NCBI GenBank assembly: GCA_016214555.1
Contig: JACROF010000012.1
Location: 4,343-68,342, forward strand
Direction: 5' to 3'
Origin: Candidatus Levyibacteriota bacterium
Lineage (GTDB): Bacteria; Patescibacteriota; Microgenomatia; Levybacterales; UBA12049
Length of the DNA: 64,000 nt
The notes beneath the pieces are model-generated. The model was not told the origin of the DNA and made no database searches. It saw only the letters and a program-made list of their open reading frames with translations. Position numbers and translations under genes: made by a program. This document shows positions 6,880 to 32,121 of this stretch, piece by piece (position 1 is the first letter of the stretch; every line of letters begins with the position of its first letter).

Positions 6880-6884
6880 ACACC

Positions 6885-7898: not shown

Positions 7899-7927
7899 CT
7901 TTATTATATTGTAGCAGTAGCAAGATC

Positions 7928-9772: not shown

Positions 9773-9825
9773 ACATTATGATAAGAAGTAGTCATTAAGT
9801 AGTTTTGTAAAACTCATTGTAGCAT

Positions 9826-10524: not shown

Positions 10525-10537
10525 TCGATAAATCACT

Positions 10538-15824: not shown

Positions 15825-15873
15825 AGAAGGTTATTGTAGCGTGTGGTTTTTCTTGATACAAGAAGTAAACCAT

Positions 15874-17568
15874 CTATTTATTCATATTCTTAAAGATAGT
15901 GACAACTGGGTGATCATAGACACTAAATGATTCATCAAGATTTTGGTCATTTAGCTCAAGAGTAGTGAATGGGATTGTAGCAAAGGATGAGAATTCTGCA
16001 ACTTTTTTGTATCCAAGCTTTCCTTTAAATAGGTCATCATAGTATTTAGCAGTTTCTTTGTAACATCTGCCTTTGGGTAGATTTTGGCAGTCAATAAGCT
16101 TGCTAAGTGGCTTATAAAGTCTGCTTGATGAAAGGATTAGGTAGTCACTTTTTTGTAAGGATGATGCAATAATGCTCCATTTCAATGGTGAGTCTGGCTC
16201 ATAAAGTGCAAGAGTCTCGTATTGATAATCGCTTGCGTTAAATAAAGGAAGGGAGTCATCCCAATGCTCAACTGCTATAGTGCTTGAGGAAGGGATGTTT
16301 TTTGTAATCCATATACTAGCCTCATATCGCGTGAAAGGTTTTGTATAGATTGACATAAAGGAGATTGGCCAGGTAAGTACGCCAATAAGAAAAATACATG
16401 CAAGAACCATTTTAGGAGACTTCAGTTTTATAAAAATCTGATAACTTACAAGGCCACCGAAGAGGCAAAGAATTGGATATAGAGGTAGTATATACCTGAT
16501 AAATCCTACAGCAAATTTTCCAACAATTAAAAAATAACTCAAAAAAAAGATCAGAAGTATTAGCTCTTGTTTTTTAAAAAGTCCAGCCTTTTTTGTCTTG
16601 ATATCAATTGCTCTTTTGATAATTCCAAAAAAGCATGTTAAGGCAAGAATTGGACCCATCCCTACAAAAAATACTTGAGTGAGTTCGTAAATATAGGGAA
16701 TCTTTCCTACGTATTGAAGCGTGTAAGGGAAAGTAAAAGCGTTTTTTGTCATTTGCGCTTGGGCTAGAGTTTGCTGCCAAAATTCAGGAAAAGCAATAAG
16801 CACATATGGTTGAAAAACAAAAAATAACAATACTGTCATAGCTCCTGTTGCAAGAAAATAAAGAATAAGTTTTTTCAAAAATGAAGGAACGTGGGCGATC
16901 CAGCTCTTAGGGTGAGGGCTTTTCTTAATGATTAGTAAAAAATCAATGGAGAGGGCGAAGAGAAAAGATACAATCAGTACTGTCGCACTAATTTTTGTTG
17001 AGAGAGACGCTGCAAGACTTGCTCCAATAAGGAGGCTTAATTTTAGAGAAGGATTCTCATAAAAACGTATGAGAAGATATAGCGTGAGAAGTATAAAAAA
17101 AGAAAGTAATGTATCAACTGCATAAAAACGAGAGAGTTGTATTGGCAATACACTTATTCCATAAAAAAAGGCAGCCAGAGCTCCAACTTTATTATTCCAA
17201 AGACGCCTACCAATGAAAAAGACGAGAGACAATATTCCAAGGTCAGCAAAAAGAGAAATAGCTCTTCCAATAATTGTCAAATAGTCATAAGAGAAATATT
17301 CTGGTTTAAAAATGGCAATAAGTTTTCCCACAAAGTAAAGCATGTAGAGAGGTAGTGATCCATATGCAAAAAAATGGGGATTCCAGGTGCTGTTCGGGTT
17401 AAAAAAATCAGCTACTGTTTTTGGAAAAGAAAGTTGATTTGTAAATAGGATTATAGCTCTCTCATCCGGATGCATATGAAATCCATGATCCCAATTTATG
17501 CCATATACTCTCATAAGCCCTGAAGCTATAAAAATTGTGATAAATAAAATCTTGCTATTATTTTTCAT
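15874..17568 (-). CDS. GT-C-fold membrane glycosyltransferase-like protein, paralog A (PMT/ArnT-like)
   Basis: 564 aa, polytopic; first-loop HPDER motif and NPHFFAYGSLPLYM shared with the adjacent paralog. Confidence 0.5.
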   Translation of the reverse strand: MKNNSKILFITIFIASGLMRVYGINWDHGFHMHPDERAIILFTNQLSFPKTVADFFNPNSTWNPHFFAYGSLPLYMLYFVGKLIAIFKPEYFSYDYLTIIGRAISLFADLGILSLVFFIGRRLWNNKVGALAAFFYGISVLPIQLSRFYAVDTLLSFFILLTLYLLIRFYENPSLKLSLLIGASLAASLSTKISATVLIVSFLFALSIDFLLIIKKSPHPKSWIAHVPSFLKKLILYFLATGAMTVLLFFVFQPYVLIAFPEFWQQTLAQAQMTKNAFTFPYTLQYVGKIPYIYELTQVFFVGMGPILALTCFFGIIKRAIDIKTKKAGLFKKQELILLIFFLSYFLIVGKFAVGFIRYILPLYPILCLFGGLVSYQIFIKLKSPKMVLACIFLIGVLTWPISFMSIYTKPFTRYEASIWITKNIPSSSTIAVEHWDDSLPLFNASDYQYETLALYEPDSPLKWSIIASSLQKSDYLILSSSRLYKPLSKLIDCQNLPKGRCYKETAKYYDDLFKGKLGYKKVAEFSSFATIPFTTLELNDQNLDESFSVYDHPVVTIFKNMNK

Positions 17569-19174: not shown

Positions 19175-20452
19175 CTAGGAGGTGGCTATCTTTGCGATTT
19201 TTTCTCCTAACTCAACTGCATAATTTGTTCCCCTATCCCACGGATATACTTGTTCGATATTTGCCAAAAATGTATGAGGTAGCGGAGTCTTAAAAGGAGG
19301 GATGAGTTTGGAATAATTTGTGGGAATGATCGGTTGTGCGAAAGGAGCTCTAAATACATCATAGGAGATGATATTTTTTTGATAATCAGGATTTATTTTC
19401 TTAAGTAAAGGATCATATCTTTTTAAGAGATTTTTTTTGTCCATTATAAAAAGTTCGCTATGAGGATCTGGGTAATTTCCAACATATACGATGTGTTCAT
19501 TGTTGAAATGTTTTTTATTCATAAGATTTGTGTGCTCTACAACCACCATTACTGGAGCATCTTTTTCGCATATGCTTAACCAGTATGTGTTGTCCTCAAG
19601 CATGTGTTTTTTCAATCTCAGGATCATATTTGTCGCACCCAACCCTCTCAGTCTTACTAATGTTTCTTTATAGCTTTCAGGAAGGTCTGGTGCAATTTTG
19701 AGAAAAAGAAAAGAGGGAAGAGTTACGATTATTCGATCGAATTTTTCAGTCTTTTCTTTGTTGTTTTTTACATAGGTTATTTGAGCGGTTTGACTATCTG
19801 AGAGATTAATTATTTCAGAATTATAGTTGATGACTCCCCCACCATTGCGGATTTTTGACGCAAGAGCATTGGCAAATTTTAGAAATCCTCCTTCTGGATA
19901 AGCAAGAGAAGGAGTTCTCTTGTAGATTCTTGTCCAGAACCAAACAAGTGAAATTTCTGTTGCATATTTTCCCATTTTATTTTTAAGTTGTGGTTCCCAG
20001 AGCATAGAGAAAGCTTTCTCACCCATTGTTTTTTTAAGAAATGAAATGGCATTTATTTTTTCAAGTGGACGCCAAAAAGGATTTAGCTTTAGAAAGGCAA
20101 GGATAAAGCTCATGCGAAGCTTGTCAAGGAGGGGGAGTTTGGGAAAAGAGAGAATTGCCAAGGGCGAATCTAGTTGATAGCTTTTTCCATCCAAGAAAAC
20201 TGAGGTTTTTGGTCTTTTAATTATTACTGGAAAATCAATTTCGTGGGCTAAATTTAGTATATGATTATCGTTTGTGAACCAGTGGTGATAGTGTTTTTCT
20301 AGAGTCCAGTTCCATTCCTTTTCTTTATAGCCAAGAGCAAGCCCTCCAGGATTTGGGTCTTTTTCAAAAATAGTTACCTTATGGCCATTTTTTTGTAGAT
20401 AAAAAGCTGCAGATAGGCCCGTAAAGCCGGCGCCGATTATACCTATTTTCAT
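19175..20452 (-). CDS. FAD/NAD(P)-binding oxidoreductase (amine-oxidase / protoporphyrinogen-oxidase-like fold)
   Basis: N-terminal MKIGIIGAGFTGLSAAFYL dinucleotide-binding motif; 425 aa. Confidence 0.6.
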   Translation of the reverse strand: MKIGIIGAGFTGLSAAFYLQKNGHKVTIFEKDPNPGGLALGYKEKEWNWTLEKHYHHWFTNDNHILNLAHEIDFPVIIKRPKTSVFLDGKSYQLDSPLAILSFPKLPLLDKLRMSFILAFLKLNPFWRPLEKINAISFLKKTMGEKAFSMLWEPQLKNKMGKYATEISLVWFWTRIYKRTPSLAYPEGGFLKFANALASKIRNGGGVINYNSEIINLSDSQTAQITYVKNNKEKTEKFDRIIVTLPSFLFLKIAPDLPESYKETLVRLRGLGATNMILRLKKHMLEDNTYWLSICEKDAPVMVVVEHTNLMNKKHFNNEHIVYVGNYPDPHSELFIMDKKNLLKRYDPLLKKINPDYQKNIISYDVFRAPFAQPIIPTNYSKLIPPFKTPLPHTFLANIEQVYPWDRGTNYAVELGEKIAKIATS

Positions 20453-21843
20453 AATGATTTTTTACCAAGGTGGAGCAGGAAGAAACCAGTGCTTAATATG
20501 ATTACAGAGATTATACCTGAAAAAAGGAGCATTGGACTTCCAGGATTTTCCTCAGGCGGAGGAACACTTTGTGTTAGAAGTGCCGTGGGGACTGGCGATG
20601 TGGGCGTTGGTGAGTGTGTAGGACTCGGAGAAGATGATGGCGCAAGGGTTGGGCTAGGTGTTGGTGTCTGCACTTTAGGAGTAGGAGTAATTGTAGGAGA
20701 GGGGATGACAGAAGGTTCAACAAACTGACTGCCTTCAGCAAAAACAGTAAAGGACCGGGTAATTGTTTGAAGAATGCCGTCTTTATTTTTTGTTTTAATA
20801 GTGATTGTATGTTCACCAGGTGAAAGCTTGGTGTCTGGTCGATAGGACCATGTGCCTCCTGTCCCAGATTTGATTGTCGTTGTGATTTGCTCATCAGAGT
20901 GTATTTCAATCTGAATTTCACTGTTGGGAAGTGCTGTGCCTTCGAATGTTGGTTGGTTATCATGAAGGGGCTCCTCTTTTTCAGGAGATAGGATAGTTGG
21001 GTTACCAGATGTTGATACCTCAGTTGCGCTAAATGAAGGGAATGAGCTTGAAGTATCAGCTGATGAAGATGCAATAGGCGCAGTATGCTGTTCAGCTTCG
21101 GATGTAAAGTCGTAGGAATTTGTTATGGTAACAGGCGGAACGGGGTTAATTTGACTTGGCAAAACGGAGACAGTAGCTTTTCCTTGTGGACTAACTGCGA
21201 GAAGTTTGATGATGCTTTGTGTTCCAAATTTACTATATGAGAGAAAATCTTTCTTTCTGAGAGCATTCAGCGGCATGATAAAGGTCCCATCTTTTTTTGT
21301 TAGTACAGAGAACGTTTGCGTGTCATCACTGACTAAAAATACTATAGTGTTGTTATCTGAGGACCCATCAGGATAGTTAACAGTTCCAACGATCGGCTGT
21401 TGTGAGTTCGGACTTTCAGATAAATGCATTAATGTTTTAATGGCAAATGGTTTTCCTTTATCTAAGAATGTTTTATCTGAGGAAGTAATTGAAAAATAAT
21501 ACTGCGTATTAGGCTCTAAATTTTTAACAGTAATATGATGAATAGAATAAGGCTGTGGAATTCCTGACTGTTGATCTCTGTCATCTAATGCAACTTTTCC
21601 ACCAGACGAAGTTTTTCCATACCCTAGACTTCCTAAGACACTATCTTTGGTTATGTAGGAAACAGTGAAAGACGAGTCTGTTAGGTTAGTTATTCTGATT
21701 TCTTCAGGGGAATATGTTGGAGATGCCTTCGTCAGAAAGAAAACTCCATGGTTAACAGCGTAGTTGAATATGAAAATACCAAATCCAATAAGAATGAGGC
21801 CTAATAGTGTTGGGATTCTTTTATACAACAATGATCCTTGCAT
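20449..21843 (-). CDS. membrane-anchored surface protein with FN3-like and Ig-like domains and PT-rich linker
   Basis: N-terminal TM/signal anchor; purple-acid-phosphatase-N/FN3-like segment (RITNLTDSSFTVSY...NLEPNTQYYFSI); Ig-like segment; PT-rich linker; C-terminal TM helix. Confidence 0.55.
   Translation of the reverse strand: MQGSLLYKRIPTLLGLILIGFGIFIFNYAVNHGVFFLTKASPTYSPEEIRITNLTDSSFTVSYITKDSVLGSLGYGKTSSGGKVALDDRDQQSGIPQPYSIHHITVKNLEPNTQYYFSITSSDKTFLDKGKPFAIKTLMHLSESPNSQQPIVGTVNYPDGSSDNNTIVFLVSDDTQTFSVLTKKDGTFIMPLNALRKKDFLSYSKFGTQSIIKLLAVSPQGKATVSVLPSQINPVPPVTITNSYDFTSEAEQHTAPIASSSADTSSSFPSFSATEVSTSGNPTILSPEKEEPLHDNQPTFEGTALPNSEIQIEIHSDEQITTTIKSGTGGTWSYRPDTKLSPGEHTITIKTKNKDGILQTITRSFTVFAEGSQFVEPSVIPSPTITPTPKVQTPTPSPTLAPSSSPSPTHSPTPTSPVPTALLTQSVPPPEENPGSPMLLFSGIISVIILSTGFFLLHLGKKSL
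20580..20705 (-). repeat. low-complexity Pro/Thr/Ser-rich linker coding region within the surface protein gene
   Basis: encodes SPTITPTPKVQTPTPSPTLAPSSSPSPTHSPTPTSPVPT; generates spurious ORFs in other frames. Confidence 0.6.
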
Positions 21844-21844
21844 A

Positions 21845-22165
21845 TTATATTGCTCCTTCTACTGCAGAGTCAGAAGCAGTTGGCTCTAAGTCAGGTACTA
21901 GTTCGCTTGTAGGAGAAGCATCTGGTGTGTCTTGTTCAGATTGATTCCCAAGGCTGAAGTCAGCCAAAATAGCATCTCTTTTTTTAAGGTCATCAATAAC
22001 ACTTGCATCAAAGGTGGATGAGATAGGTGTGATAAGAAGGCTTTGAGGTTTGGTAAGGGTTGAATTGACTGCTTTACTATAAATTCCCAAGATGATCCAT
22101 ACAAGTATAACAAATGCAGAAGGGATAAGAATATAAAGTAAATTTTTTTGTTGTTGTGGTTTCAT
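21845..22165 (-). CDS. small single-pass membrane protein (possible pilus assembly accessory, PilP-like position)
   Basis: 106 aa; N-terminal TM helix then acidic/Ser-rich tail; sits directly downstream of pilO-like gene. Confidence 0.3.
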   Translation of the reverse strand: MKPQQQKNLLYILIPSAFVILVWIILGIYSKAVNSTLTKPQSLLITPISSTFDASVIDDLKKRDAILADFSLGNQSEQDTPDASPTSELVPDLEPTASDSAVEGAI

Positions 22166-22166
22166 A

Positions 22167-22793
22167 TTATGGTTGATAGTATGCGCTTGCCTGAATGATT
22201 AGCTTTAACTCTCCAGACTTTTGATCTGCAGGAACAGTGAGTGTTAAAGAGGTGATGGTAATAATTCTCTCTATGTTGACAATATCTTCGTAGAATGACT
22301 CCATATCTGATAATTTTCCTTGGATGGTAAGTGCGATAGGTATTTCCTGAAGTGTACTAGACATTTTTTTATGAGTAGCTAGTTCGACAGATTGTGTTTG
22401 TAGCTGTGTAAGAGTGACGTTATTTGTTGATGCAATTGTTCGGAGTTGACCAGCAAGTTTTGTTAGTTCTGCAGATGTAGGAACAGCTTTGTATAAAATA
22501 GGAAGCTGCGAAGACAAGGGTTGGTATGCCTGGTCAAGAAGTGTCATATTGGCAATTTTTGTTTGGAGTTGTTTATCAAGGTATTTGTTGTCTTCAAGCG
22601 TTTTTTTAAGTTCAGAGATGGTTGAAAGCGTTGGACTTATAGCAAAAATACCAAAAAACATACAAGCAGTAATAGTCAAAATAAGCGTTGCATACGTCTG
22701 AACTTTTTCCTCGTGAATATTTGGAAGTGAACGAATATATTTTAGGTAACGCTCTTTTGAAAGCTTACTGAGAAGTTCTGGAGTAATTTTCAT
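22167..22793 (-). CDS. type IV pilus assembly protein PilO-like
   Basis: 208 aa; cytoplasmic N-terminus, single TM, coiled-coil, C-terminal beta-rich domain; 4-nt overlap with the pilN-like gene. Confidence 0.45.
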   Translation of the reverse strand: MKITPELLSKLSKERYLKYIRSLPNIHEEKVQTYATLILTITACMFFGIFAISPTLSTISELKKTLEDNKYLDKQLQTKIANMTLLDQAYQPLSSQLPILYKAVPTSAELTKLAGQLRTIASTNNVTLTQLQTQSVELATHKKMSSTLQEIPIALTIQGKLSDMESFYEDIVNIERIITITSLTLTVPADQKSGELKLIIQASAYYQP

Positions 22794-23362
22794 TGCTTAG
22801 CCCCCTTTTCACCTTCTAACTTACTTTTCCCCAGGACTCCAGATGAGATTACGGCTGCAATTTGCGCTGTCGTTGATTTATTTTCAATTCTATCGATACT
22901 TACCTCAGATAGCTCTTTTTTTTCTTGAATACCTCCTACGAAATCTCTCAAATTTTTTATATCAAAAGCAACTAATTCAATATGGAGAGAATTATTGCTT
23001 ACAGACATACTTTTAATAGAAATGTTATTTTTTTGCGCAAGCAATGTTATGTCTTCTAAGAGAAGGGGAAGAAAAGCAACATCGGTGTTAAGCTTCTTGG
23101 TTTGAAGAAGCCTTTCTTGCAATTGGCGATATGAGTCTTCTTGTTCTTTGAAAGTTTCTACAATTCTTGTTTTTGCTTTAATTTTGTCATGAAGGTCGAT
23201 GATTTGACGATCAAGCGTAAAACGATAGAGAAAAGCGGCAAGCGCAATCGTTTCTGTAAGAATGACTAAAAATCTTCCGCCAGTAATTGCCCATTTAATA
23301 AAAACATCAAGGGAGGGAGTGCCCTTTTTTTTAAGAAGATTGATTGTTAGTTGTTTGGTCAT
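22790..23362 (-). CDS. type IV pilus assembly protein PilN-like
   Basis: 190 aa; N-terminal LTINLLKKK (INLLP-like PilN motif) followed by TM helix and coiled coil. Confidence 0.55.
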
Positions 23363-23537
23363 GGCAGGCAGATTGTGTTTAACAACACAAACACAGCCGA
23401 CAGATAATCAGCCTTATCTCAGTCTAAGATCTTTTTCCTTAAAAGTAAAGAAAAACACTTTTTATTTCATGCTAGAAATAGGCGCAAAATTGTGTTATAC
23501 TTTCTTTGTCCCGAATAGATACGGGATTTTTCTTTCT

Positions 23538-25646
23538 ATGGCAGATACACAACGACAGGTACCACTTGATAAAATCCGAAATATCGGAATTATTGCTCAT
23601 ATTGACGCAGGTAAAACAACAACTACCGAGCGTATTCTTTTCTATACAGGCCGAACTTATAAGATCGGAGATATCGATGAAGGGAACACGCAAATGGATT
23701 GGATGGAACAGGAGAAAGAACGCGGAATTACTATTGTTTCAGCTGCGACTACTACTTTCTGGAAGGATCATCGCATCAATATAATTGATACTCCTGGCCA
23801 TGTTGATTTTACCGCAGAAGTAGAACGTTCTTTAAGAGTTCTTGATGGAGGCATTACCGTGCTGGATGCAGAAGAGGGAGTGCAGTCTCAGTCAGAAACT
23901 GTTTGGCGTCAAGCTGATAAATATAAAGTTCCTCGTATCTGTTTTGTCAACAAAATGGATAAATTAGGCGCAGACTTTCTTGCAACAGTAAAAAGTATTG
24001 AAGATCGACTTGGTGCAAATCCGGCAATTATGGTTCTTCCTATTGGTGCAGAAAGTACGTATGTAGGAAATGTTGATCTTTTGACAAGACAATCAATCCG
24101 TTGGAGCTCTGAAGAGCTTGGAGCAAAGTTTGACCTTTCAGACGAAATTCCCTCCGATATGAAAGATCAGGTAGAAGAGTATAGAGCAAAACTTATTGAA
24201 AAAATTGCTGAGACAGATGATGCACTTTTGGAAAAATATCTTGGCGGAGAAGAGCCTTCAATTGACGAGCTCAAGAAAGCTCTCCGTGCGGCAGTTATCG
24301 CCTACAAACTTGTTCCTATTTATGCTGGAACTTCGCTTCGCAATAAAGGAGTTCAGCCACTTTTGGATGCGGTTGTTGATTTTCTCCCCTCCCCTGTTGA
24401 TCTTAAAGAGGTTACAGGAGTTCATCCCAAAACAGGAGAGCCAGAAGTAAGACAGCTTGTTCCAGATGCTTCATTTAGCGGTCTTGCATTTAAGATCCAA
24501 AACGATCCTCATGTAGGAAAATTGACCTATTTCCGTGTTTATTCAGGAAAAATTGAAGCTGGATCCTATGTATATAACAGCACAAAGGGAGTTAAAGAGC
24601 GCGTAGGAAGACTTCTTATGATGCATGCAAATCAGCGTGAGGAGATAAAAGAAGGATTTGCTGGAGAAATCGTTGCTGTCGTTGGCCTAAAAGATACAGG
24701 AACTGGTGATACATTGTGCGACGAGACAAAGCAGATTGTTTTGGAAAAAATTTCGTTTCCTGAGCCTGTTATATCCCTTGCTATTGAACCTCAAACAAAA
24801 TCTGATCAGGAAAAACTTGGTTATGCCCTTAAAAGACTTACTGAGGAAGATCCAACATTTTCTGTTAAAAGCAATCATGAAACAGGACAGACGATTATTT
24901 CAGGTATTGGAGAATTGCAGCTTGAGGTTATGGTGGATCGCATGAAGAGGGAGTTTAATGTGCTTGCAAATGTTGGTGCGCCGCAAGTTGCGTACAAAGA
25001 AACATTTACAGAAAAGGTAGAGGCTGAGGGTAAATATATTCGCCAATCAGGAGGAAGAGGACAATTCGGACATTGTTGGCTTCGTATAGAGCCAAAAACT
25101 CGTGGAGAAGGAAATGAATTTGTGAGCGAAATTAAAGGAGGAGCTATTCCTGCGGAATTTGTTAAAGCTGTTGAAAAAGGAGTTTGGGAGACGCTTGAAA
25201 ATGGCGTTCTTCTTGGATATCCAGTCGTTGATGTAAAAATTGCGTGCTATGATGGCTCATTCCACGAAGTAGACTCAAGTGAGGTTGCATTTAAGATTGC
25301 AGCAAGTCAGGCGATTCAGGCTGCATCTAAAAAATCCCAAATGAATTTACTTGAGCCTATTATGAAGGTTGAGGTTACAACACCCTCTGAGTATATGGGA
25401 GATGTGATGGGAGATCTTTCAAGTAAGCGTGGGCAAATCGTTGGAACAGAAGAAAGGTCGCGAGCAACGATCATTAATGCGCTTGTACCCCTTGCTGAGC
25501 TCTCAGGCTATGCAACTCAAATTAGGTCGATGTCTCAGGGGCGAGCATCTTATTACATGGAGCCAAGCCATTATGATATCGTTCCAAGAAATATCGTTGA
25601 GCAAATGCTTGCTAAATCCACCTTCACAGGCCGTGTTGAAGCATAA
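23538..25646 (+). CDS. fusA: translation elongation factor G
   Basis: [38 protein letters not shown]...DTPGHVDF...NKMD; about 703 aa from ATG at 23538; the ORF-track start at 23262 is an upstream in-frame extension. Confidence 0.9.
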
Positions 25647-25713
25647 TCCCTCCCTTGACCCTACTCTTTAGCTTCCTTGAGTTTTGATATAAAATAGTAT
25701 ATAAATCACCTTT

Positions 25714-26370
25714 ATGAAAAAAGTTATGGGTATTTTTGCTCATCCCGACGATGAGGCGCTTGGCCCTGCCGGTACTCTTGCAACATTTGCAAAAGATAAT
25801 GATGTTTATCTTATCTGCGTGACAAGTGGTGAGGCAGCGGGTAAAACAAAAGAGGAGAAATTACTCATTGGAGAGATAAGACGAAATGAGCTTCTCAGGT
25901 CGGCAAAGATATTGGGGATTAAGGATGTTTTTTTCTTGGGATACGAAGATGGTGAATTAAAAAATAACATATACCATCAGCTTGCAGATGATATAGCTAA
26001 AAAAATTGAGGAGATAAGACCAGAAATTCTTTTAACGTTTGATCTTAAAGGAGTGTCAGGACATATTGATCATATTACCGTGTCTTTTGTTACAACCTTC
26101 GTGTTTAAAAAGTATTCTTTTATTAAAAAGTTGATGTATTATGTGACCACCAAGGCAAAGAGTGATCGAATGCAGGATTATTTTATCCATTTCCCAAAAG
26201 GCTACGAAAGACAGGAAGTGGACGAGGTTATTAGTGTTGAAAATGTCTGGGAAACTAAAGTGAAAGCAATGCATTGTCACGTTTCACAAATGAAAGATGT
26301 GGAATCAGTTTTAAAAGGAGCGAAAGATTCCCCTAAAGAAGAATATTTCCTCATTGATGAAAAATTATAG
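25714..26370 (+). CDS. PIG-L/LmbE-family N-acetylglucosaminyl deacetylase
   Basis: N-terminal AHPDDEALGPAG motif and downstream HIDH of the LmbE-like metal site. Confidence 0.7.
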   Translation: MKKVMGIFAHPDDEALGPAGTLATFAKDNDVYLICVTSGEAAGKTKEEKLLIGEIRRNELLRSAKILGIKDVFFLGYEDGELKNNIYHQLADDIAKKIEEIRPEILLTFDLKGVSGHIDHITVSFVTTFVFKKYSFIKKLMYYVTTKAKSDRMQDYFIHFPKGYERQEVDEVISVENVWETKVKAMHCHVSQMKDVESVLKGAKDSPKEEYFLIDEKL

Positions 26371-26394
26371 TTGTATTCACGTATAATGTGATAC

Positions 26395-27489
26395 ATGACT
26401 AAAACTTTTTTTCTTGTTATTTCCATTCTTGCGATCATACTTTTGGGAGGAGTTGTTGGTATTCGTTATTTCAAAAATAGCATTAATACTCTTTTTGTCC
26501 AAAGTGCAAATCAAAAACTTATTGCTCCCTCCCCTACTCCTATTGGCCCTGTTGCTCAAAAAATTCACGAGACACTTTTTGTTCCCTATTGGAGCTTTTC
26601 TGATAACTCTGAGGATATAGGATCGCACGCAACAGTTGTCTATTTTGGGTTAGGGGTCAATAGTCATGGAGTTGTCACAAGTGATGAGGGGTATAAGAAG
26701 CTCCCATCATTTGTGAGTTTAACAAAGGGAAGCAAGAAAATTCTTGCGGTAAGAATGACAGATACAAGCTCAAATACCAATATTCTTAAGGATAAAAAAG
26801 CTCAGGAAACCATTGTCTCAGAAGTAATCACTATTGCACGAGACAATGGATTTGACGGAATACTTCTTAATATTGAGGTGTCAGCACTTCCTTTCACATC
26901 GCTTATTAATCAAATAACAGCGTTTAATACTCTTTTTGCAGACAGATCTCACGCAGGCAATTTAACATATAGCATTACTGCGTATGGAGACACGTTTTAT
27001 CGAGCAAGGCCATTTGATATGAAAAAGCTTGGAGAAAAAGCTGATCATGTCTATGTGATGGCGTATGACTTTCATAAAGCAAAAGGAAATCCAGGCCCTA
27101 ATTTCCCTCTCAAAGGGAACGATGTCTATGGGTATGATATGGAAAGGATGATTAATAACTTTGCCAACGTGGTTGATCTTAAAAAGCTAGTTGTTATTTT
27201 TGGTATGTATGGATATGACTGGGTAGTTGATGAGAAAGATGTGGCTCAGGAGATAGGTGCCCCTTTGAGTCTTTTGGAGGTTTCATCAGGAATTGTTGAT
27301 AATTGTAATCATGATTTGTGTAGTTGGGAGAGGGATGGTATTTCCTCTGAGACGAAAGCTGTGTATGAGGATGAAGGACAAAAACATGTAGTATGGTTTG
27401 AGGATAAAGAATCTGTGAAAAGAAAACAAGAATTTCTCAAGCAACATGGCATTGGGGAGTTTGCTTATTGGGCGTATTCCTATTTTTGA
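26395..27489 (+). CDS. membrane-anchored glycoside hydrolase family 18-like protein with degenerate catalytic motif
   Basis: N-terminal TM; FDGILLNIEV in place of DGxDxDWE (Glu kept, two Asp replaced); VMAYDFHKAKG resembles GH18 MxYDxxG motif. Confidence 0.5.
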   Translation: MTKTFFLVISILAIILLGGVVGIRYFKNSINTLFVQSANQKLIAPSPTPIGPVAQKIHETLFVPYWSFSDNSEDIGSHATVVYFGLGVNSHGVVTSDEGYKKLPSFVSLTKGSKKILAVRMTDTSSNTNILKDKKAQETIVSEVITIARDNGFDGILLNIEVSALPFTSLINQITAFNTLFADRSHAGNLTYSITAYGDTFYRARPFDMKKLGEKADHVYVMAYDFHKAKGNPGPNFPLKGNDVYGYDMERMINNFANVVDLKKLVVIFGMYGYDWVVDEKDVAQEIGAPLSLLEVSSGIVDNCNHDLCSWERDGISSETKAVYEDEGQKHVVWFEDKESVKRKQEFLKQHGIGEFAYWAYSYF

Positions 27490-27500
27490 TTAAAAAAAAT

Positions 27501-27530
27501 CCCCGCCTGTATCAATTGACACAGACGGGG
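27501..27530 (-). terminator. GC-rich hairpin (CCCCGCCTGT/ACAGACGGGG, 9 of 10 bp) followed by T-run on the minus strand
   Basis: lies between convergent stops (27489 plus strand, 27539 minus strand); the A8 run at 27492-27499 reads as T8 on the minus strand. Confidence 0.6.
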
Positions 27531-27538
27531 CGTGAGGC

Positions 27539-28576
27539 TTACAAGACCAATGCATAGTCTTGACGAAAGCTATCAAACGCAGCAATTGCGATTGAGAGAG
27601 TCCGATCGTCTAGACACACATGGTCGCACAACATCATGGTGCGAAAGCCAGCGTTATAGAGATAGGCAAGTTCCGAAAAATCAGCACATTCAGGTGTGTC
27701 CTGGGGTTCTCCAGTGATTGGGTTTTTTTGCCCCAAGGAAAGGAAGATTCGTGAACCAACACAGGCCTCGGGATCTTTTTGAATAATCTCCTCAAGTGCT
27801 TGAAGAATGTGATGAGGGCGAGGAAGCTCAACATAGAGGTCTCCCCGTGCCGCCATCAATCTGACGTTTGGCTGTGGCTTAAAGCTCTTTCTGACATAGG
27901 TCATTCCCTTTGGTGACTCAATCTTGAGCATGACTGTTGCGTCGTGCCCAACAAGATCTAGGAATTGCCCTACGTCCTCCTCAGACTCTACATAGGAAAG
28001 AAAGAATCTTGTGAATCCTGCAGCCTTCACCATCTCAATTTTTTCAAGTTCCAGGTCTGTGAAGAGTGGTCCTTGAATTGAGAGGCTAGCATTGCGGATG
28101 CACATCGAGTCGCCTGGTACGACTTCAGATCGAGGTCCATATCGTTTGCCAGGTGCAAAAATTAGCCTCTTACCGTCATCTGCGATAGCTATGAGGATTG
28201 CATGATCTGATCCAGATTTGAGCTCTACTGGAATACCACGGGCTGGATCGACATTTAGAGAGATAGGGTGATTGAGGGTGACTTCCAAATGCGTTGGATA
28301 GTCATGCACCTCTGCAACCCGAATCTGCCGACTTTTGATGTCATACCACATAGGGACAGTGGAATATGTCTTGCGAAGGACCTCAAGGTCCTTCGCAAGA
28401 TCAGAAGGGTTGACCATCGGCCTATTGAGGCGGATGCCGCTTAGGCGATGGTCAGTTGCAAATGTGGCAAAATGCGGCATTGTTGGCCACAAAGTTGCCA
28501 TGAGATCCAGCCTCTCAGGAGTCATAGGAAAATCCTGAGGCTGTGTCTTAAAAAGGTCGAGAAACCGGTTTGGCAT
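27539..28576 (-). CDS. pyruvate-kinase-like (PK barrel) protein with about 120-aa N-terminal extension
   Basis: VMLKIESPKGM and RLMAARGDLYVELP spaced exactly as PK KIEN...MVARGDLGVEIP (22 residues); downstream TMMLCDH resembles PK VMLSGE; start taken at MPNRF (ATG 28576-28574) after a GGAGG RBS; the ORF track extends to 28642. Confidence 0.5.
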   Translation of the reverse strand: MPNRFLDLFKTQPQDFPMTPERLDLMATLWPTMPHFATFATDHRLSGIRLNRPMVNPSDLAKDLEVLRKTYSTVPMWYDIKSRQIRVAEVHDYPTHLEVTLNHPISLNVDPARGIPVELKSGSDHAILIAIADDGKRLIFAPGKRYGPRSEVVPGDSMCIRNASLSIQGPLFTDLELEKIEMVKAAGFTRFFLSYVESEEDVGQFLDLVGHDATVMLKIESPKGMTYVRKSFKPQPNVRLMAARGDLYVELPRPHHILQALEEIIQKDPEACVGSRIFLSLGQKNPITGEPQDTPECADFSELAYLYNAGFRTMMLCDHVCLDDRTLSIAIAAFDSFRQDYALVL

Positions 28577-29537
28577 CTTCATCCTCCAAGAGCATGATCG
28601 ACTTTCCGCTATGATCGCGGGGATCACCAGGGGAGACAGCAAGAATTGTCTTGAGTGACCTGTATGCCGCCTCTACCTGTCCTGGTTTTTGTCGCTCATT
28701 GATCTCATCGTGATAAAAATCAACTTTACCGGTCTTTTTGGCGAAGATACCCAAAATGACATCAACGACTCGGTTGGGGTCACGAAGAATCGCGATGTGG
28801 TCCTCTCCCAGTAGCTTCACCCAGTCAGCATGAATTGCACTACTCTCCGGGTCTAGGGACTGCAGTGAATCAGCAGTCGAATGGCTATAGGGCTTTTGAA
28901 TGAAGTAGACATCGGAGTCTTTATTCAGCTTAGCAAAAAGCTCTGCTGTTGTGATTCGTTCTGTCGTGACCTTGGCAAATTGTTGCGCAAGTTTTGGGCT
29001 CACCTCGTCATATGGTGACTCGTCGCCAAGGAAAATAATGAGCGGTCTTGTCGCATTGGGCATTGAGACGTTGTGAGATACGTACAGTGCAGCGAGCTCA
29101 TAAGACTCAGTGGTTTTGGGGCCACCACCACCTTCATATTTCAATCGAGTTGGGTCGAGTTCCGCCTTGAGATCAGCGCCTTGTGCAAAGGCGTGTCCTT
29201 GAAGCGGATATTTGTCACAGGTTGCATCGCCAACAGCCATGAAAAGGATCTGGGCGTCATCATCAAAGTAGATCTGACGAGCGTAGGTGTCAAGCAGAGG
29301 TAGCTTGCCACGAATTGTGGCTGGCCACTCCTGCATTGATCCGGTGACGTCAATCACAACGATAATTGGGTGCCTACTTGTTGTAGTAATAGTTGCTGCA
29401 AGAAGAGATGAGGCAGATACCCCAGAGCTTACAGCACTGGAATAGCTCCGTCCAGCGTCAACAACGTAAGCGTTGCGTGCAGCAGTGAAATCGCTATCAT
29501 CTCTCCATTCTCTTGGAGTACTGATTGCACTTCCCAT
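28548..29537 (-). CDS. von Willebrand factor A (vWA) domain protein
   Basis: IIVVIDVTGSM MIDAS-type DxTGS motif at the start of an alpha/beta domain; 329 aa. Confidence 0.55.
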   Translation of the reverse strand: MGSAISTPREWRDDSDFTAARNAYVVDAGRSYSSAVSSGVSASSLLAATITTTSRHPIIVVIDVTGSMQEWPATIRGKLPLLDTYARQIYFDDDAQILFMAVGDATCDKYPLQGHAFAQGADLKAELDPTRLKYEGGGGPKTTESYELAALYVSHNVSMPNATRPLIIFLGDESPYDEVSPKLAQQFAKVTTERITTAELFAKLNKDSDVYFIQKPYSHSTADSLQSLDPESSAIHADWVKLLGEDHIAILRDPNRVVDVILGIFAKKTGKVDFYHDEINERQKPGQVEAAYRSLKTILAVSPGDPRDHSGKSIMLLEDEDAKPVSRPF

Positions 29538-29539
29538 CG

Positions 29540-30556
29540 TTAGCTCCTTTCAGCCTTCAGTGGCTTCATGCCGGTATGAAGACGTCCAAACGACTCAAGC
29601 CGAACTCTTTGAATAGTCTCGCAGAGGTCCTCCTTGCCCCAGTGAGGTCTTTCCATCGGATCTTCACGTACTAACCTGCTGATGAATTCGACGAAAGGAT
29701 CAGGGGTCTTTTTGGGAACTTTCTTGTCTTTGACAAGATTTGGGTCGCGCGTGAGCGCGAAGATTAATGTCATACCGAGCGCATAAAGATCTGACTCTGG
29801 GATTGGTGGTTTGCCTGCTATTTGCTCAGGGGGAGCAAAAAGCTCAGTATAACCAATAGTACGAGATGTACCAGTTGGCTTGACTGATGAGAGTCCAAAA
29901 TCGATCAGTACAGCCATGTGTTTGTCAGGCTGCACGATGATATTTTGAGGCTTGATATCTCCATGAATGATTTGATTATGGTGTAGATATGCAAGCGCAT
30001 TAAGTGAGCGCTCTGCTATCCACGAAACTCCTTCAGGATCCAGTGGTCCGAGATCGCCAACAAGTTTGAAGAGGGTATCTCCTGGAATGTAACTCATCAC
30101 AAGCGCAAGGCTTCCATCATCCATTTTGAGCATATCTCTCATGGTGGGAAGCGCGTAGTGACGAAGATCCCATACTACTTTTGCTTCATCGATCAGAATC
30201 TGATTTCTCAGAGTTGATACTTTTGAGCAAAACTTGATACAGACGAGTTCTCCCGTAATCAGATGTTCTGCTTTGTGGGTTGGGCCAAAGCCTCCCTCTG
30301 CGATTTTTTCGATAATTCGATACCCTCCGACAATCATGTCGTCTTTTTTACCTCGATCCCGCATAAAGCGAGCGAGTTTATCCGGGTCACTAATTATTTC
30401 ATATGCAGTATTGATATGTACGAAGATTTCGGGATCACCACCTTTGTCAGGGTGATATGCTCTTGCAAGCCCTTTCCATGCGCCTTCAATGGCAGCAGGG
30501 TCTGCGTTTGGCAATAGACCAAGGGTTTGGAATGGATCAGTAATAACTGTCACCAA
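29540..30556 (-). CDS. J-domain (DnaJ-like) fused to Hanks-type Ser/Thr protein kinase
   Basis: N-terminal AYHPDKGGDPEIF (HPD J-domain signature); kinase subdomains AEGGFGPTH / VCIKF / HGDIKPQNI / DFGLS / APPE. Confidence 0.7.
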   Translation of the reverse strand: MVTVITDPFQTLGLLPNADPAAIEGAWKGLARAYHPDKGGDPEIFVHINTAYEIISDPDKLARFMRDRGKKDDMIVGGYRIIEKIAEGGFGPTHKAEHLITGELVCIKFCSKVSTLRNQILIDEAKVVWDLRHYALPTMRDMLKMDDGSLALVMSYIPGDTLFKLVGDLGPLDPEGVSWIAERSLNALAYLHHNQIIHGDIKPQNIIVQPDKHMAVLIDFGLSSVKPTGTSRTIGYTELFAPPEQIAGKPPIPESDLYALGMTLIFALTRDPNLVKDKKVPKKTPDPFVEFISRLVREDPMERPHWGKEDLCETIQRVRLESFGRLHTGMKPLKAERS

Positions 30557-30858
30557 TTTCTCCTTTCCTAATTATTCCTGCCAGTAGGCAGCGTCTTGGC
30601 TACTATTTATAGTAAACAAGACGCCACCTGCTGACATGATTTTTCGGTACTTTGTTAAAGAACAAAAATTTCTCTTCCATGACATATTAGTCAGGTTTGA
30701 AATTCGTTGGTTATTATAACACATACTACCTATAGTAGTGATTTGTACTTGTATCAAACGCTTGAAGTAGGTGAAAAATTCTTTTTAGAAATCGATGAGG
30801 CTAATTATTTTTTAAAATTTAGCCTCAGAGTTATACAAAATTACTCCTGAAAAGGGTA

Positions 30859-30887
30859 TTGACGCTCGGGGGGAAATGTAGTATCAT
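30859..30887 (+). promoter_or_regulatory. sigma70-like promoter upstream of tuf (TTGACG-17 nt-TATCAT)
   Basis: near-consensus -35/-10 with 17-nt spacer about 55 nt upstream of the tuf ATG. Confidence 0.45.
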
Positions 30888-30942
30888 ACACATAATCTCA
30901 TTGAAATAGATGGGATCTTTTTTTCTTTAAAACTAAAAACAT

Positions 30943-32121
30943 ATGGCAACATTTAATCGAAACAAACCACACGTCAATATCGGAACGATCGGCCACGTCG
31001 ATCACGGTAAGACAACAACAACTGCAGCTATTGCTACTGTTCTTTCAAAGCACGGTGGAGGAGAGGCTAAGAAATACGAAGACATCGACAATGCTCCAGA
31101 GGAAAAGGCTCGTGGAGTAACCATTAATATTTCCCACATCGAATACGAAACAGAAAAGCGTCATTATGCTCATATCGATGCTCCAGGTCACGCTGATTAC
31201 ATCAAAAACATGATTACAGGGGCGGCTCAAATGGACGGAGCAATTCTTGTCGTCTCAGCGCCTGATGGTCCAATGCCTCAGACTCGAGAACACATTCTTC
31301 TTGCATATCAAGTTGGCGTTCCAGCAATCGTTGTTTACCTTAACAAATGTGATATGGTTCAGGACGAAGAGCTTTTGGACCTTGTTGAGATGGAAGTTCG
31401 TGAACTTCTTACCAAATACAAATACCCAGGCGACACAACTCCAATTATCCGTGGTTCATCTCTTAAGGCACTTGAGGGAGATCCAGCATACGAAGAAAAA
31501 ATAATGGAACTTATGAAGACAGTTGATGAGTACATTCCAACTCCAACTCGTGATCTTGATAAGCCATTCTTGATGCCTGTTGAGGACGTTTTCTCAATCA
31601 AAGGTCGAGGAACAGTCGTTACAGGAAGAGTCGAGCGTGGAGTTGTCAAAGTTAACGAGCCTATTGAAATCGTTGGTATGAAAGCAACAACACAAAGTGT
31701 CGTTACTGGAGTTGAGATGTTTAGAAAACAGCTCGATCAAGGTCAGGCTGGAGATAACGTAGGACTTCTTCTAAGAGGTGTTGAGAAGGACGATGTTGAG
31801 CGTGGACAGGTATTGGCAAAGCCTGGTTCTATCACTCCACACACTGATTTTGAAGCAGAAGCATACATTCTTTCTAAAGAAGAGGGTGGCCGACATACAC
31901 CATTCTTTAAGGGATATCGACCACAATTTTATATCAGAACTACCGACGTAACTGGGGAAACTATCCTTCCAGACGGTGTTGAGATGGTAATGCCTGGAGA
32001 CAATACAAAAATGACAGTAAAACTTATTGTACCTGTTGCTCTTGAAGAAGGACTTCGATTTGCTATCCGCGAAGGCGGACGAACAGTCGGAGCAGGTGTT
32101 ATTAGTAAAATCTTAAAATAA
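30943..32121 (+). CDS. tuf: translation elongation factor Tu
   Basis: [21 protein letters not shown] motifs; 392 aa. Confidence 0.95.

What the first reader, a model, noticed from the sequence alone, without database searches (positions are those of the whole stretch)
27539..28576. Pyruvate-kinase-fold protein with conserved KIE...ARGDL spacing but divergent remainder
The C-terminal about 220 residues contain VMLKIESPKGM and RLMAARGDLYVELP. These are separated by exactly 22 residues, as the KIEN and MVARGDLG(V/I)E(I)P motifs are in pyruvate kinases. They are followed by TPECADFSELAYLYNAGFRTMMLCDH, which parallels the PK PRPTRAE...DVANA...D.VMLSGE segment.

The about 120-aa N-terminal part has no PK counterpart, and the protein is far shorter than a real PK because it lacks B- and C-domains. 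So this is a PK-like TIM-barrel enzyme of unknown reaction, encoded in the island downstream of the vWA and kinase genes.
Basis: partly seen in the sequence, partly recalled or inferred. Interest (0 to 1): 0.55.

Follow-up and report, generated by a model that had tools for sequence, protein, structure and literature searches.

The report
Short pyruvate-kinase homologue with vWA partner
The gene encodes a real but shortened relative of pyruvate kinase that keeps the catalytic barrel and lid, lacks the regulatory tail, and always sits next to a metal-binding vWA protein (usually also a chaperone-linked protein kinase) in an undescribed, horizontally mobile operon of ultra-small bacteria, archaea and huge phages.

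Summary
The ORF (27539-28576, minus strand) is real and is a true pyruvate-kinase (PK) homologue. Evidence: TIGR01064 E=9.5e-8, a family profile against PDB that hits only PKs (E=3.4e-10), and an AlphaFold model (pLDDT 94) whose top 50 Foldseek PDB hits are all PKs (E=2e-17).

Three points were wrong:
- The N-terminus carries the PK RLN and DxKGxxxR motifs.
- A shortened B-domain is present.
- The KIE-ARGD spacing is 22 residues, against 20 in E. coli PykF.

The PK catalytic residues are invariant across 120 family members.

The gene is the last of a tight operon: J-domain Ser/Thr kinase, then a MIDAS vWA protein, then the PK-like gene, then a terminator. This triad is present in 66 of 70 cellular loci (CPR bacteria, DPANN archaea) and in 19 of 20 viral-collection loci, including a 485-kb phage. 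It is GC-atypical in this window. A more PK-like sister clade keeps the vWA-PK pair inside NAD-biosynthesis or PurA operons.

Most likely it is a PEP-dependent NDP-phosphorylating enzyme whose vWA partner and kinase supply, in trans, the control that the C-domain normally gives. It is not the housekeeping PK. The function is inferred and untested. No description was found in the literature.

The parts
29540..30556 (-). First gene of the operon: an N-terminal J-domain (HPD motif) fused to a Hanks-type Ser/Thr protein kinase (338 aa). It has VCIK, HGDIKPQN and DFG motifs, so it is probably active.
   Evidence: Pfam DnaJ E=7.5e-11 and Pkinase E=1.1e-33. An AGGAG ribosome-binding site precedes the TTG/GTG start. 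A homologous kinase lies upstream of the vWA gene in 66/70 cellular loci. A J-like N-terminus is found in 59/72 kinase ORFs (several of the rest are contig-truncated fragments) and HPD in 35/67.
28548..29537 (-). Second gene: a divergent von Willebrand A (vWA) protein with a MIDAS metal site (D63-x-T65-x-S67 ... D172), a helical N-terminal extension, a C-terminal helical bundle and a disordered tail (329 aa).
   Evidence: The AlphaFold model has pLDDT 88.7. Foldseek PDB hits are integrin beta-I, RGLG1 MIDAS, NorD vWA and LFA-1 I-domain, E about 5e-6 to 6e-5. D63, T65, S67 and D172 are invariant. There is no significant Pfam, NCBIfam, PADLOC or PDB-sequence hit. It hits phrog_2971 at E=4e-27. 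The start codon lies 2 nt after the kinase stop codon.
27539..28576 (-). Third gene (the finding): a PK-like protein with A-domain barrel and B-domain lid but no C-domain (345 aa, or 328 aa from M18 at 28525). It overlaps the vWA gene's 3' end by 29 nt.
28334..28525 (-). A-domain strands 1-3. They carry T28/P31, R49-L-N51 and D79-I-K81 (345-aa numbering), which correspond to PK T9/P12, R32/N34 and D66/K68 of PykF.
   Evidence: DSSP strands 7-12, 30-33 and 59-64 of the model. The columns are invariant. They are collinear with PykF. Coordinates were checked.
28076..28333 (-). Shortened B-domain (lid): a beta-rich insert of about 85 residues. It carries R86 (matching PK R73), the family-specific invariants N102-H103 and K120, and R161 (matching the PK lid lysine).
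   Evidence: DSSP strands 69-143 lie between strand 3 and helix 3. The sister-clade profile aligns this region with PykF 132-170. Conservation.
27542..28075 (-). A-domain strands 4-8 and a closing helix, with these sites:
- K218 (27923-27925), E220 (27917-27919), D246 (27839-27841).
- S275 (27752-27754, in place of the PK Thr).
- C317-D318-H319 (27620-27628, in place of S-G-E).
   Evidence: Alignments to PK. Invariance. Coordinates.
27501..27530 (-). Intrinsic terminator closing the operon: a 13-bp stem with 8 G-C pairs, followed by a T-run. It starts 9 nt after the PK-like stop codon.
30557..30942 (.). AT-rich intergenic region (GC 0.33) between the divergently transcribed operon and tuf. It presumably holds the operon's promoter, which has not been mapped.
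   Evidence: only consensus-level promoter matches.

Best explanation
Shown:
- The ORF is a genuine pyruvate-kinase homologue made only of the catalytic A-domain barrel and a shortened B-domain lid.
- All residues that canonical PK uses to bind PEP, Mg2+ and the nucleotide phosphates are conserved across the family.
- It is the last gene of a tight operon: J-domain Ser/Thr kinase, then MIDAS vWA protein, then the PK-like gene. The operon ends at a strong terminator.
- The operon has atypical GC in this genome, so it was probably acquired horizontally.
- The same triad occurs in many CPR bacteria, DPANN archaea and huge-phage contigs.

Inferred:
- The enzyme transfers the phosphoryl group of phosphoenolpyruvate to a nucleoside diphosphate, most simply ADP to ATP. 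It would use K218 and R49 on the phosphate, E220 and D246 on Mg2+, and S275 as proton donor.
- It probably needs no K+, because R83-Q84 replace PK's P-E at the cation site.
- It has no allosteric or tetramerising C-domain. I propose that the always-adjacent vWA protein binds it through its MIDAS site as a regulatory subunit acting in trans.
- The kinase would switch that interaction by phosphorylation, and its J-domain would couple it to Hsp70. In some relatives an AAA+ ATPase takes the place of the kinase.
- The module is accessory, not the housekeeping glycolytic PK.
- Sister-clade contexts (nadD/nadE/NAD kinase, PurA, a QueC fusion) suggest its role is a controlled supply of ATP or adenylate for nucleotide and cofactor synthesis in energy-poor symbionts and during phage infection.
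For: Homology and fold.

Catalytic set: R32, N34, D62, K64, Q67, R69, K201, E203, D229, E233 and S258 are invariant in 120/120 members, and the lid residue R144 is in 117/120 (numbering from M18).

Operon structure:
- The kinase-vWA gap is 2 nt and the vWA-PK overlap is 29 nt.

Conservation of the triad:
- It is found in 66/70 cellular loci with unrelated flanks.
- It is found in 18 IMG/VR loci and in LR745208.1, a 485-kb phage.
- The vWA-PK pair is kept in the sister clade in nearly all of 80 metagenome loci.

Accessory, transferred nature:
- GC is 0.477 against 0.367, and GC3 is 0.41-0.46 against 0.25-0.32.
- Only 291 matches (a lower bound set by the search patterns) were found among 185,579 species genomes.
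- Only 154 cluster representatives reach E<=1e-30 among 1.84 billion proteins.
- Canonical PK is reported in about a third of CPR genomes (PMC7304191).

Sister-clade contexts:
- All 39 loci with enough flank carry NAD-pathway genes (26), PurA-like (14), a Ser/Thr kinase (16) or an AAA ATPase (6).
- There is a PK-like::QueC fusion.
- Bxz1-type mycobacteriophages carry J-kinase-like, vWA and PurA-like genes together.

vWA fold and an intact MIDAS site.
Against: - No activity, complex formation or phosphorylation has been tested.
- Several active-site-proximal positions differ from every canonical PK and are invariant here: Q328 to R, G362 to D, and GDLG to GDL(Y/F). This clade also has H319 where PK and most of the family have Glu. 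The substrate could therefore differ from PEP/ADP.
- The NAD/PurA association comes from the sister clade. Tier-1 loci such as this one rarely have such neighbours.
- The vWA-as-subunit idea rests on gene adjacency and on analogy only.
- I could not check whether this genome also has a canonical pyk gene.
Confidence: 0.45

Rival explanations
1. It has the PK fold but different chemistry. The vWA-PK-like pair would be a two-subunit enzyme catalysing a PEP- or NTP-dependent phosphoryl transfer to another acceptor in NAD+, ADP-ribose or adenine-nucleotide metabolism, not ADP to ATP.
For: - Family-specific invariant residues lie next to catalytic ones: R259 after S258, D301, the aromatic residue after D229-L, H238, D251.
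- The sister clade is embedded between nadD and nadE, or next to NAD kinase, Nudix-NMNAT, a PRK-family kinase or PurA.
- ADP-ribosylglycohydrolase lies near the triad in 9/20 viral-collection loci.
- There is a fusion to a QueC-like domain.
Against: - Every PEP-, Mg2+- and phosphate-binding residue of PK is retained, which is the simplest signature of PK chemistry.
- The NAD genes are not next to tier-1 members such as this one.
- No candidate acceptor can be named from sequence.
Confidence: 0.25
2. It is simply this organism's glycolytic pyruvate kinase in a minimal form. The neighbours would be its regulators or merely co-located genes.
For: - The catalytic residues are intact.
- JGI and NCBI name some members 'pyruvate kinase'.
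- CPR genomes often lack a detectable PK, and divergent substitutes have been suggested (PMC7304191).
- No canonical PK was seen in the 64-kb window or in any fetched flank.
Against: - The distribution is sparse and patchy across two domains of life and phages.
- It has foreign GC and lies between fusA and tuf.
- It is never next to glycolytic genes and always next to vWA.
- The sister clade sits in 4-Mb Anaerolineales genomes, which are unlikely to lack a normal PK (the last point is an inference, not checked).
Confidence: 0.15
3. It is a conflict system: a TerY-P-like kinase/vWA defence cassette, or a phage counter-defence or takeover cassette. The PK-like protein would be the effector, for example by draining PEP or rewiring nucleotide pools.
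For: - vWA + Ser/Thr kinase (+ PP2C in 4 loci) resembles the TerY-P triad, which acts as a stand-alone antiphage system (PMC11090510).
- The kinase hits PADLOC kinase models.
- One locus (L001) sits among Shedu-, PLD- and HTH-type genes.
- The cassette is mobile and phage-borne.
Against: - The vWA and PK-like proteins have no PADLOC hit.
- Sequence conservation is very high for a conflict system: about 50% identity from CPR to DPANN, with 45 invariant columns.
- The core has no nuclease, NADase or pore-type effector.
- The related cassette is present in about 200 lytic mycobacteriophages.
Confidence: 0.1
4. It is a catalytically dead PK-fold scaffold, that is, a pseudoenzyme.
For: This clade has H in place of the conserved Glu (PK E363 equivalent) and deviates at RLNSAM to RLNRPM and KGRQ to KSRQ.
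Against: - The metal, Lys, Arg and Ser/Thr residues are invariant.
- The sister clade also lacks that Glu but keeps an invariant Asp one position earlier, which suggests a shifted acid rather than a lost one.
Confidence: 0.05

Closest known systems
Canonical pyruvate kinase (EC 2.7.1.40; e.g. E. coli PykF, rabbit M1, yeast Cdc19)
   Same: - It has the A-domain (beta/alpha)8 barrel with the B-domain inserted after strand 3.
- The motifs TxxP, RLN, DxKGxxxR, KIE, ARGD and (T/S) on strand 7 are collinear, with an acidic residue on strand 8.
- Among solved structures searched, by sequence profile and by fold, only PKs came up.
   Different: - There is no C-terminal allosteric/tetramerisation domain (PF02887).
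- The B-domain is about 85 residues, against about 100.
- Scores are far below family cut-offs: 31 against 306 bits for TIGR01064, and 22.9 against 30 for PF00224.
- Invariant substitutions are P-E to R-Q at the K+ site, T to S, Q to R, G to D, and GDLG to GDLY.
- It has an obligate vWA gene neighbour.
TerY-P triad (TerY-like vWA + PP2C phosphatase + Ser/Thr kinase; Anantharaman et al. 2012, cited in PMC11090510)
   Same: A three-gene cassette pairing a MIDAS vWA protein with a Hanks-type kinase. A PP2C phosphatase is adjacent in 4 related loci. The cassette is mobile.
   Different: - The third gene is a PK-like enzyme, not PP2C.
- The kinase carries a J-domain rather than a zinc ribbon or OB fold.
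- The vWA protein matches no TerY or PADLOC model.
Chaperone-ATPase/vWA activase pairs (MoxR/AAA+ with vWA: CbbQ-CbbO, NorQ-NorD, BchI-BchD; reviewed in PMC7159879)
   Same: - A vWA adaptor is encoded next to the enzyme it may act on, together with a link to a remodelling machine.
- Here that link is a J-domain, which recruits Hsp70. Six sister-clade loci have a classical AAA ATPase directly upstream of the vWA gene.
- NorD vWA is among the fold hits.
   Different: There is no AAA+ gene in this window. The remodelling role of Hsp70 and any vWA-PK contact are hypotheses.
Uncharacterised J-domain kinase-like / vWA / PurA-like cluster of Bxz1-type (cluster C) mycobacteriophages (LinStu gp257-gp260)
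   Same: The J-domain kinase-like protein is homologous (BLASTP E=8e-18) and so is the vWA protein (hhalign 99.9%). Gene order is the same. The cluster is followed by a nucleotide-metabolism enzyme.
   Different: There is no PK-like gene. The phage kinase has lost the catalytic Asp and the DFG motif. Its function is equally unknown.

Membership tests
Pyruvate kinase (PF00224 barrel + PF02887 C-domain; TIGR01064) | (beta/alpha)8 A-domain homologous to the PK barrel | tested here: met
   The family profile against PDB hits only PKs, best E=3.4e-10. The top 50 Foldseek PDB hits are all PKs, E=2e-17, TM(query) up to 0.74.
Pyruvate kinase (PF00224 barrel + PF02887 C-domain; TIGR01064) | B-domain (lid) inserted between strand 3 and helix 3 | tested here: met
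   A beta-rich insert spans model residues about 65-150. The sister-clade profile aligns it to PykF 132-170. It is shorter than in PykF.
Pyruvate kinase (PF00224 barrel + PF02887 C-domain; TIGR01064) | C-terminal alpha/beta domain (allosteric site, tetramer interface) | tested here: not met
   The protein ends about 25 residues after strand 8. Family lengths are mostly 303-380 aa. There is no PF02887 hit.
Pyruvate kinase (PF00224 barrel + PF02887 C-domain; TIGR01064) | Catalytic and ligand residues (rabbit numbering, recalled from the PK literature): R72, N74, D112, R119, K269, E271, D295, T327, E363 | tested here: met
   The equivalents R32, N34, D62, R69, K201, E203 and D229 are invariant. 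T327 is an invariant Ser. E363 is Glu in 113/120 members but His in this protein's clade.
Pyruvate kinase (PF00224 barrel + PF02887 C-domain; TIGR01064) | Score above the curated family cut-offs | tested here: not met
   PF00224 gives 22.9 bits against a cut-off of 30. TIGR01064 gives 31 against 306.4. Some relatives pass PF00224, e.g. L195 at 32.5 and P0303 at 55.
Pyruvate kinase (PF00224 barrel + PF02887 C-domain; TIGR01064) | Catalyses PEP + ADP to pyruvate + ATP | not testable with these tools
   This needs an enzyme assay.
Other PK-like-superfamily barrels (HpcH/HpaI aldolase, PEP-utilizers_C, PEP mutase/ICL) | Profile match to those families | tested here: not met
TerY-P triad / known antiphage kinase-vWA systems | TerY-type vWA + PP2C + Ser/Thr kinase, matching defence-system models | tested here: not met
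   The vWA and PK-like proteins have no PADLOC hit at E<=1. The window has no PP2C. Only the kinase domain hits generic kinase models.
von Willebrand A domain (for the partner protein) | vWA alpha/beta fold with MIDAS motif DxSxS...T...D | tested here: met
   Fold hits are integrin beta-I, RGLG1, NorD and LFA-1 I-domains. D63-x-T65-x-S67 and D172 are invariant. The position of the MIDAS Thr was not determined. Sequence models do not detect it.

The most novel reading that the evidence does not exclude
The vWA and PK-like proteins would form a previously unrecognised two-subunit phosphotransferase, with a MIDAS vWA subunit replacing the PK C-domain. Its real job would be a new PEP-driven step in NAD+, ADP-ribose or adenine-nucleotide metabolism. 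It would be switched by a J-domain kinase through Hsp70. Huge phages, CPR bacteria and DPANN archaea would exchange it as a portable way to secure or restore nucleotide-cofactor pools, for instance against NAD+- or ATP-depleting immunity.
Probability: 0.2. Interest if true: 0.8.

Novelty: new variant of a known kind. Interest (0 to 1): 0.6.

Why it matters
- Pyruvate kinase is among the best-studied enzymes, and its regulation is thought to depend on the C-domain. A widespread natural form lacks that domain and is instead tied genetically to a vWA protein and a chaperone-linked protein kinase. That would be a different solution to controlling the last ATP-yielding step of glycolysis, or a new reaction on the PK scaffold.
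- The cassette moves between CPR bacteria, DPANN archaea and huge phages. These organisms have energy and nucleotide budgets that are poorly understood, and 'pyruvate kinase present/absent' calls feed their metabolic models. Members annotated as 'pyruvate kinase' may be miscounted as glycolytic PK.
- The same kinase-vWA pair in about 200 sequenced mycobacteriophages offers a tractable experimental entry point in a culturable host.

Tried and rejected
- HpcH/HpaI, PEP-utilizers_C and other superfamily barrels: no hits even at E<=10. Rejected.
- Defence-system libraries: the PK-like and vWA proteins have no PADLOC hit. Membership in TerY-P is rejected.
- Viral structure library (BFVD): nothing meaningful for the PK-like model. 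PHROGs gave nothing for the PK-like protein.
- Integration signatures: no tRNA. No convincing flanking direct or inverted repeats and no integrase. The mechanism of acquisition is unknown.
- A metal-cluster idea for the four conserved Cys (C255, C280, C300, C304): they are not conserved in the sister clade and no coordinates were available to measure distances. Not pursued.
- Sequence search of the vWA family against PDB: 0 hits. A Pfam scan of 56 members gave only marginal VWA_CoxE hits.
- Literature: 10 full-text searches found no description of the triad, of the vWA-PK pair, or of C-domain-less PKs in CPR/DPANN.
- I could not test whether triad-bearing genomes also encode a canonical PK. 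Only +/-10 kb around each hit can be fetched, and no canonical PK lies in any fetched flank.
Full report
**1. What is at the coordinates.**

A 345-codon ORF lies on the minus strand at 27539-28576. A GGAGG box sits 6 nt before the ATG at 28576. A second in-frame ATG, M18 at 28525, matches where most homologues begin. An identical protein is deposited as a hypothetical protein of a Candidatus Levybacteria MAG, on a 299,555-bp contig.

The 22-residue spacing between KIE and ARGDL is correct for this protein. E. coli PykF, fetched for comparison, has 20. HMMER places a 2-residue insertion in the query.

**2. Is it a PK relative?**

Yes, at every level of evidence.

- Single-sequence searches give PF00224 at E=5.4e-5, below Pfam's cut-off, and TIGR01064 at E=9.5e-8.
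- A 56-member family profile searched against all PDB sequences returns 95 chains, all pyruvate kinases, best E=3.4e-10.
- An AlphaFold2 model built on that alignment is very confident (pLDDT 94.1, pTM 0.91).
- The model's top 50 Foldseek hits in the PDB are all pyruvate kinases: E down to 2e-17, 357-379 aligned columns, TM normalised to the query 0.64-0.74.
- No other Pfam family was listed at E<=10 (HMMER's filters drop most matches above about 0.1), so HpcH/HpaI and PEP-utilizers_C get no support.

**3.

The model has eight barrel strands. A beta-rich insert of about 85 residues sits between strand 3 (residues 59-64, numbering from M18) and helix 3 (157-168). This is the position of the PK B-domain.

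The N-terminal strands carry invariant T11-x-x-P14, R32-L-N34 and D62-x-K64-G-R-Q67-x-R69. These are collinear with PykF T9/P12, R32-L-N34 and D66-T-K68-G-P-E71-I-R73. The sister-clade profile aligns PykF residues 5-76 and 132-318, including half of the B-domain.

In the C-terminal half the correspondences are as follows:

| This family | PykF | Rabbit muscle PK |
|---|---|---|
| K201, E203 | K220, E222 | K269, E271 |
| D229 | D246 | D295 |
| S258 (invariant) | T278 | T327 |
| C300-D301-E302 | S312-G313-E314 | S361-G362-E363 |

The roles of these PK residues (phosphate binding, Mg2+ ligands, proton donor) are recalled from the PK literature, not tested here.

In 120 family members the core set is invariant. 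E302 is Glu in 113. It is His in this protein and its three closest relatives.

The protein stops about 25 residues after strand 8, so the C-domain is truly absent. In short, 'PK-fold, no C-domain' is right. 'No PK counterpart for the N-terminus' and 'no B-domain' are wrong.

Family-specific invariant changes sit next to the active site:

- R-Q replaces P-E at the K+ site.
- R259 replaces Q.
- D301 replaces G.
- An aromatic residue replaces the Gly of GDLG.
- H238 and the D251-P-E-A loop are also family-specific.

These changes leave room for altered cation dependence or substrate.

**4. The neighbourhood is the main finding.**

Upstream on the same strand lie two more genes:

- A 338-aa protein with a J-domain (HPD motif) fused to a Hanks-type Ser/Thr kinase.
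- A 329-aa protein with no Pfam, NCBIfam, PADLOC or PDB-sequence hit.

The AlphaFold model of the second protein (pLDDT 88.7) matches vWA/MIDAS domains: integrin beta-I, RGLG1, NorD and LFA-1. It has an invariant D-x-T-x-S...D MIDAS motif.

The genes are packed tightly. The kinase-vWA gap is 2 nt and the vWA-PK overlap is 29 nt. A 13-bp-stem terminator follows the PK-like stop codon.

The three genes have GC 0.477 and GC3 0.41-0.46. The rest of the window has GC 0.367 and GC3 0.25-0.32. The step coincides with the operon boundaries.

The operon lies between fusA and tuf, together with a PIG-L deacetylase and a GH18 gene. No tRNA, integrase or flanking repeats were found.

**5. Conservation of the cassette.**

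- Homologues of the PK-like protein are 43-80% identical. They come from many CPR phyla and from Nano-, Woese- and Pacearchaeota.
- A scan of 185,579 species-representative genomes found 291 matches. This is a lower bound set by the search patterns.
- A scan of 1.84 billion cluster representatives found only 154 at E<=1e-30. The family is small and tight.
- In 70 cellular loci with enough upstream DNA, 66 have kinase, vWA and PK-like genes. Three have vWA-PK only and one has the PK-like gene alone. The flanks are unrelated.
- Most of the kinases have a J-like N-terminus. Several archaeal ones lack it.
- Occasional extra neighbours are an AbrB/PhoU-domain regulator (12 mostly archaeal loci), PP2C (4 loci) and an unannotated 290-aa gene between vWA and PK.
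- The complete triad is also in 18 IMG/VR contigs of 45-442 kb and in the 485-kb 'uncultured phage' LR745208.1. An ADP-ribosylglycohydrolase often lies nearby.

**6. The sister clade.**

The representative search revealed a second tier of proteins of about 300 aa (motifs RFNT, DLKGRQLR, KIES, ARDDL, ASRIL, LSDG). This tier is closer to canonical PK.

In 80 metagenome loci a homologue of the same vWA family lies directly upstream in almost every case. The vWA-PK pair is therefore the conserved core.

The surrounding genes fall into a few themes. They include NadD/NMNAT-like, glutamine-dependent NadE, a NadE-NadD fusion, Nudix-NMNAT, NAD kinase, a PRK-family kinase, PurA-like, a Ser/Thr kinase, and a classical AAA ATPase. 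All 39 loci with adequate flanks have at least one of these:

| Neighbour type | Loci (of 39) |
|---|---|
| NAD-pathway gene | 26 |
| PurA-like | 14 |
| Ser/Thr kinase | 16 |
| AAA ATPase | 6 |

The nadD-vWA-PK-nadE arrangement belongs to Anaerolineales with genomes of about 4 Mb. One relative is fused to a QueC-like PP-loop domain.

About 200 Bxz1-type mycobacteriophages encode a homologous J-domain kinase-like protein, the vWA protein and a PurA-like enzyme in the same order, without a PK-like gene.

**7. Interpretation.**

Shown:
- The protein is a PK homologue with A+B architecture and an intact catalytic set.
- It lies in a conserved, mobile operon with an obligate vWA partner.

Inferred:
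- It still transfers phosphate from PEP to an NDP.
- The vWA protein acts as a trans-acting regulatory subunit in place of the C-domain.
- The J-domain kinase, or an AAA+ ATPase in some relatives, switches or remodels that complex. This would be analogous to AAA+/vWA activase pairs (PMC7159879).
- The sister-clade contexts point to adenine-nucleotide and NAD supply as the physiological theme.

The housekeeping-PK reading is disfavoured by four observations:
- The distribution is sparse, spans two domains of life and includes phages.
- The GC content is foreign to this genome.
- No glycolytic genes are neighbours.
- Canonical PK is already reported in about a third of CPR genomes (PMC7304191).

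This reading could not be excluded, because whole genomes could not be scanned.

A changed substrate remains a serious rival, given the invariant non-PK residues near the active site.

A TerY-P-like conflict role (PMC11090510) is possible. It is weakened by the lack of defence-model hits and by unusually strong sequence conservation.

**8. Novelty.**

Ten full-text literature searches found no description of this cassette. Databases call the protein 'hypothetical' or 'pyruvate kinase'. I rate it a new variant of a known kind. The enzyme superfamily is well known. The C-domain-less architecture with conserved vWA and J-kinase partners, and its spread through CPR, DPANN and huge phages, appear undescribed.

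Noticed in passing
window 23262-32121: The normally adjacent fusA and tuf genes are separated by 5.3 kb. The gap holds a PIG-L deacetylase (25714-26370), a GH18 glycosidase (26395-27489) and the GC-rich minus-strand triad. The fusA ORF as listed has a spurious N-terminal extension of about 95 codons that overlaps the pilus gene upstream.
   Followed up: partly
L194 (Mycobacterium phage LinStu NC_023714.1, 149023-152739) and about 200 other cluster C mycobacteriophages: The gene order is gp257, gp258, gp259, gp260.
- gp257 is a J-domain (HPD) kinase-like protein that has probably lost catalysis (HGD to HGA, DFG to DWC).
- gp258 is a clear homologue of the vWA family.
- gp259 is small.
- gp260 is a PurA-like enzyme annotated '2-aminooxy adenylosuccinate synthetase'.
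This is an uncharacterised phage cassette related to the triad.
   Followed up: partly
L195 (LR745208.1, 485-kb uncultured phage) 7923-10883 and 15100-16281; also L087-L089, L095, L098-L100, L102: Huge-phage-sized contigs carry the complete J-kinase/vWA/PK-like triad. An ADP-ribosylglycohydrolase gene recurs within about 6 kb in 9 of 20 viral-collection loci. L195 also has Thg1-like and HNH genes nearby.
   Followed up: partly
L162, L165, L167, L179, L143 (Anaerolineales-type metagenome contigs), around 6300-10500: A conserved operon runs nadD-like, vWA, PK-like, glutamine-dependent nadE, with a divergent radical-SAM/HhH gene upstream. The vWA-PK pair is inserted between two consecutive NAD-synthesis steps.
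   Followed up: partly
P0303 (568 aa), P0241 (479 aa), P0297 (577 aa): These family members have unusual architectures. P0303 is PK-like fused to a QueC-like PP-loop domain. P0241 has a duplicated C-terminal barrel segment. P0297 is the N-terminal half of the PK-like protein followed by about 390 residues with no Pfam match.
   Followed up: partly
L042 (193-7038): This locus has two PK-like and three vWA genes in tandem and no kinase. It looks like a local amplification of the pair.
   Followed up: no
L044, L050, L054, L057, L062, L063, L075, L077, L078, L080, L084, L017: An AbrB/MazE-like + PhoU-domain protein of about 320 aa is encoded next to the triad, usually divergently, in 12 mostly archaeal loci. 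It may be a phosphate-responsive regulator of the cassette.
   Followed up: no
L078 4242-5120, L080 5079-5987, L082 4926-5816, L084 5062-5928, L141 7035-7901: A conserved gene of about 290 aa with no Pfam hit lies between the vWA and PK-like genes in a DPANN subgroup. Its function is unknown.
   Followed up: no
window 20449-23362 (minus strand): This stretch holds a PilO-like pilus assembly gene (22167-22793) with a neighbouring PilN-sized gene that has no Pfam hit. It also holds a 464-aa surface protein with FN3/Big_13 domains and a Ser/Pro/Thr-rich tail ending in a membrane anchor. This is typical CPR cell-surface equipment.
   Followed up: no
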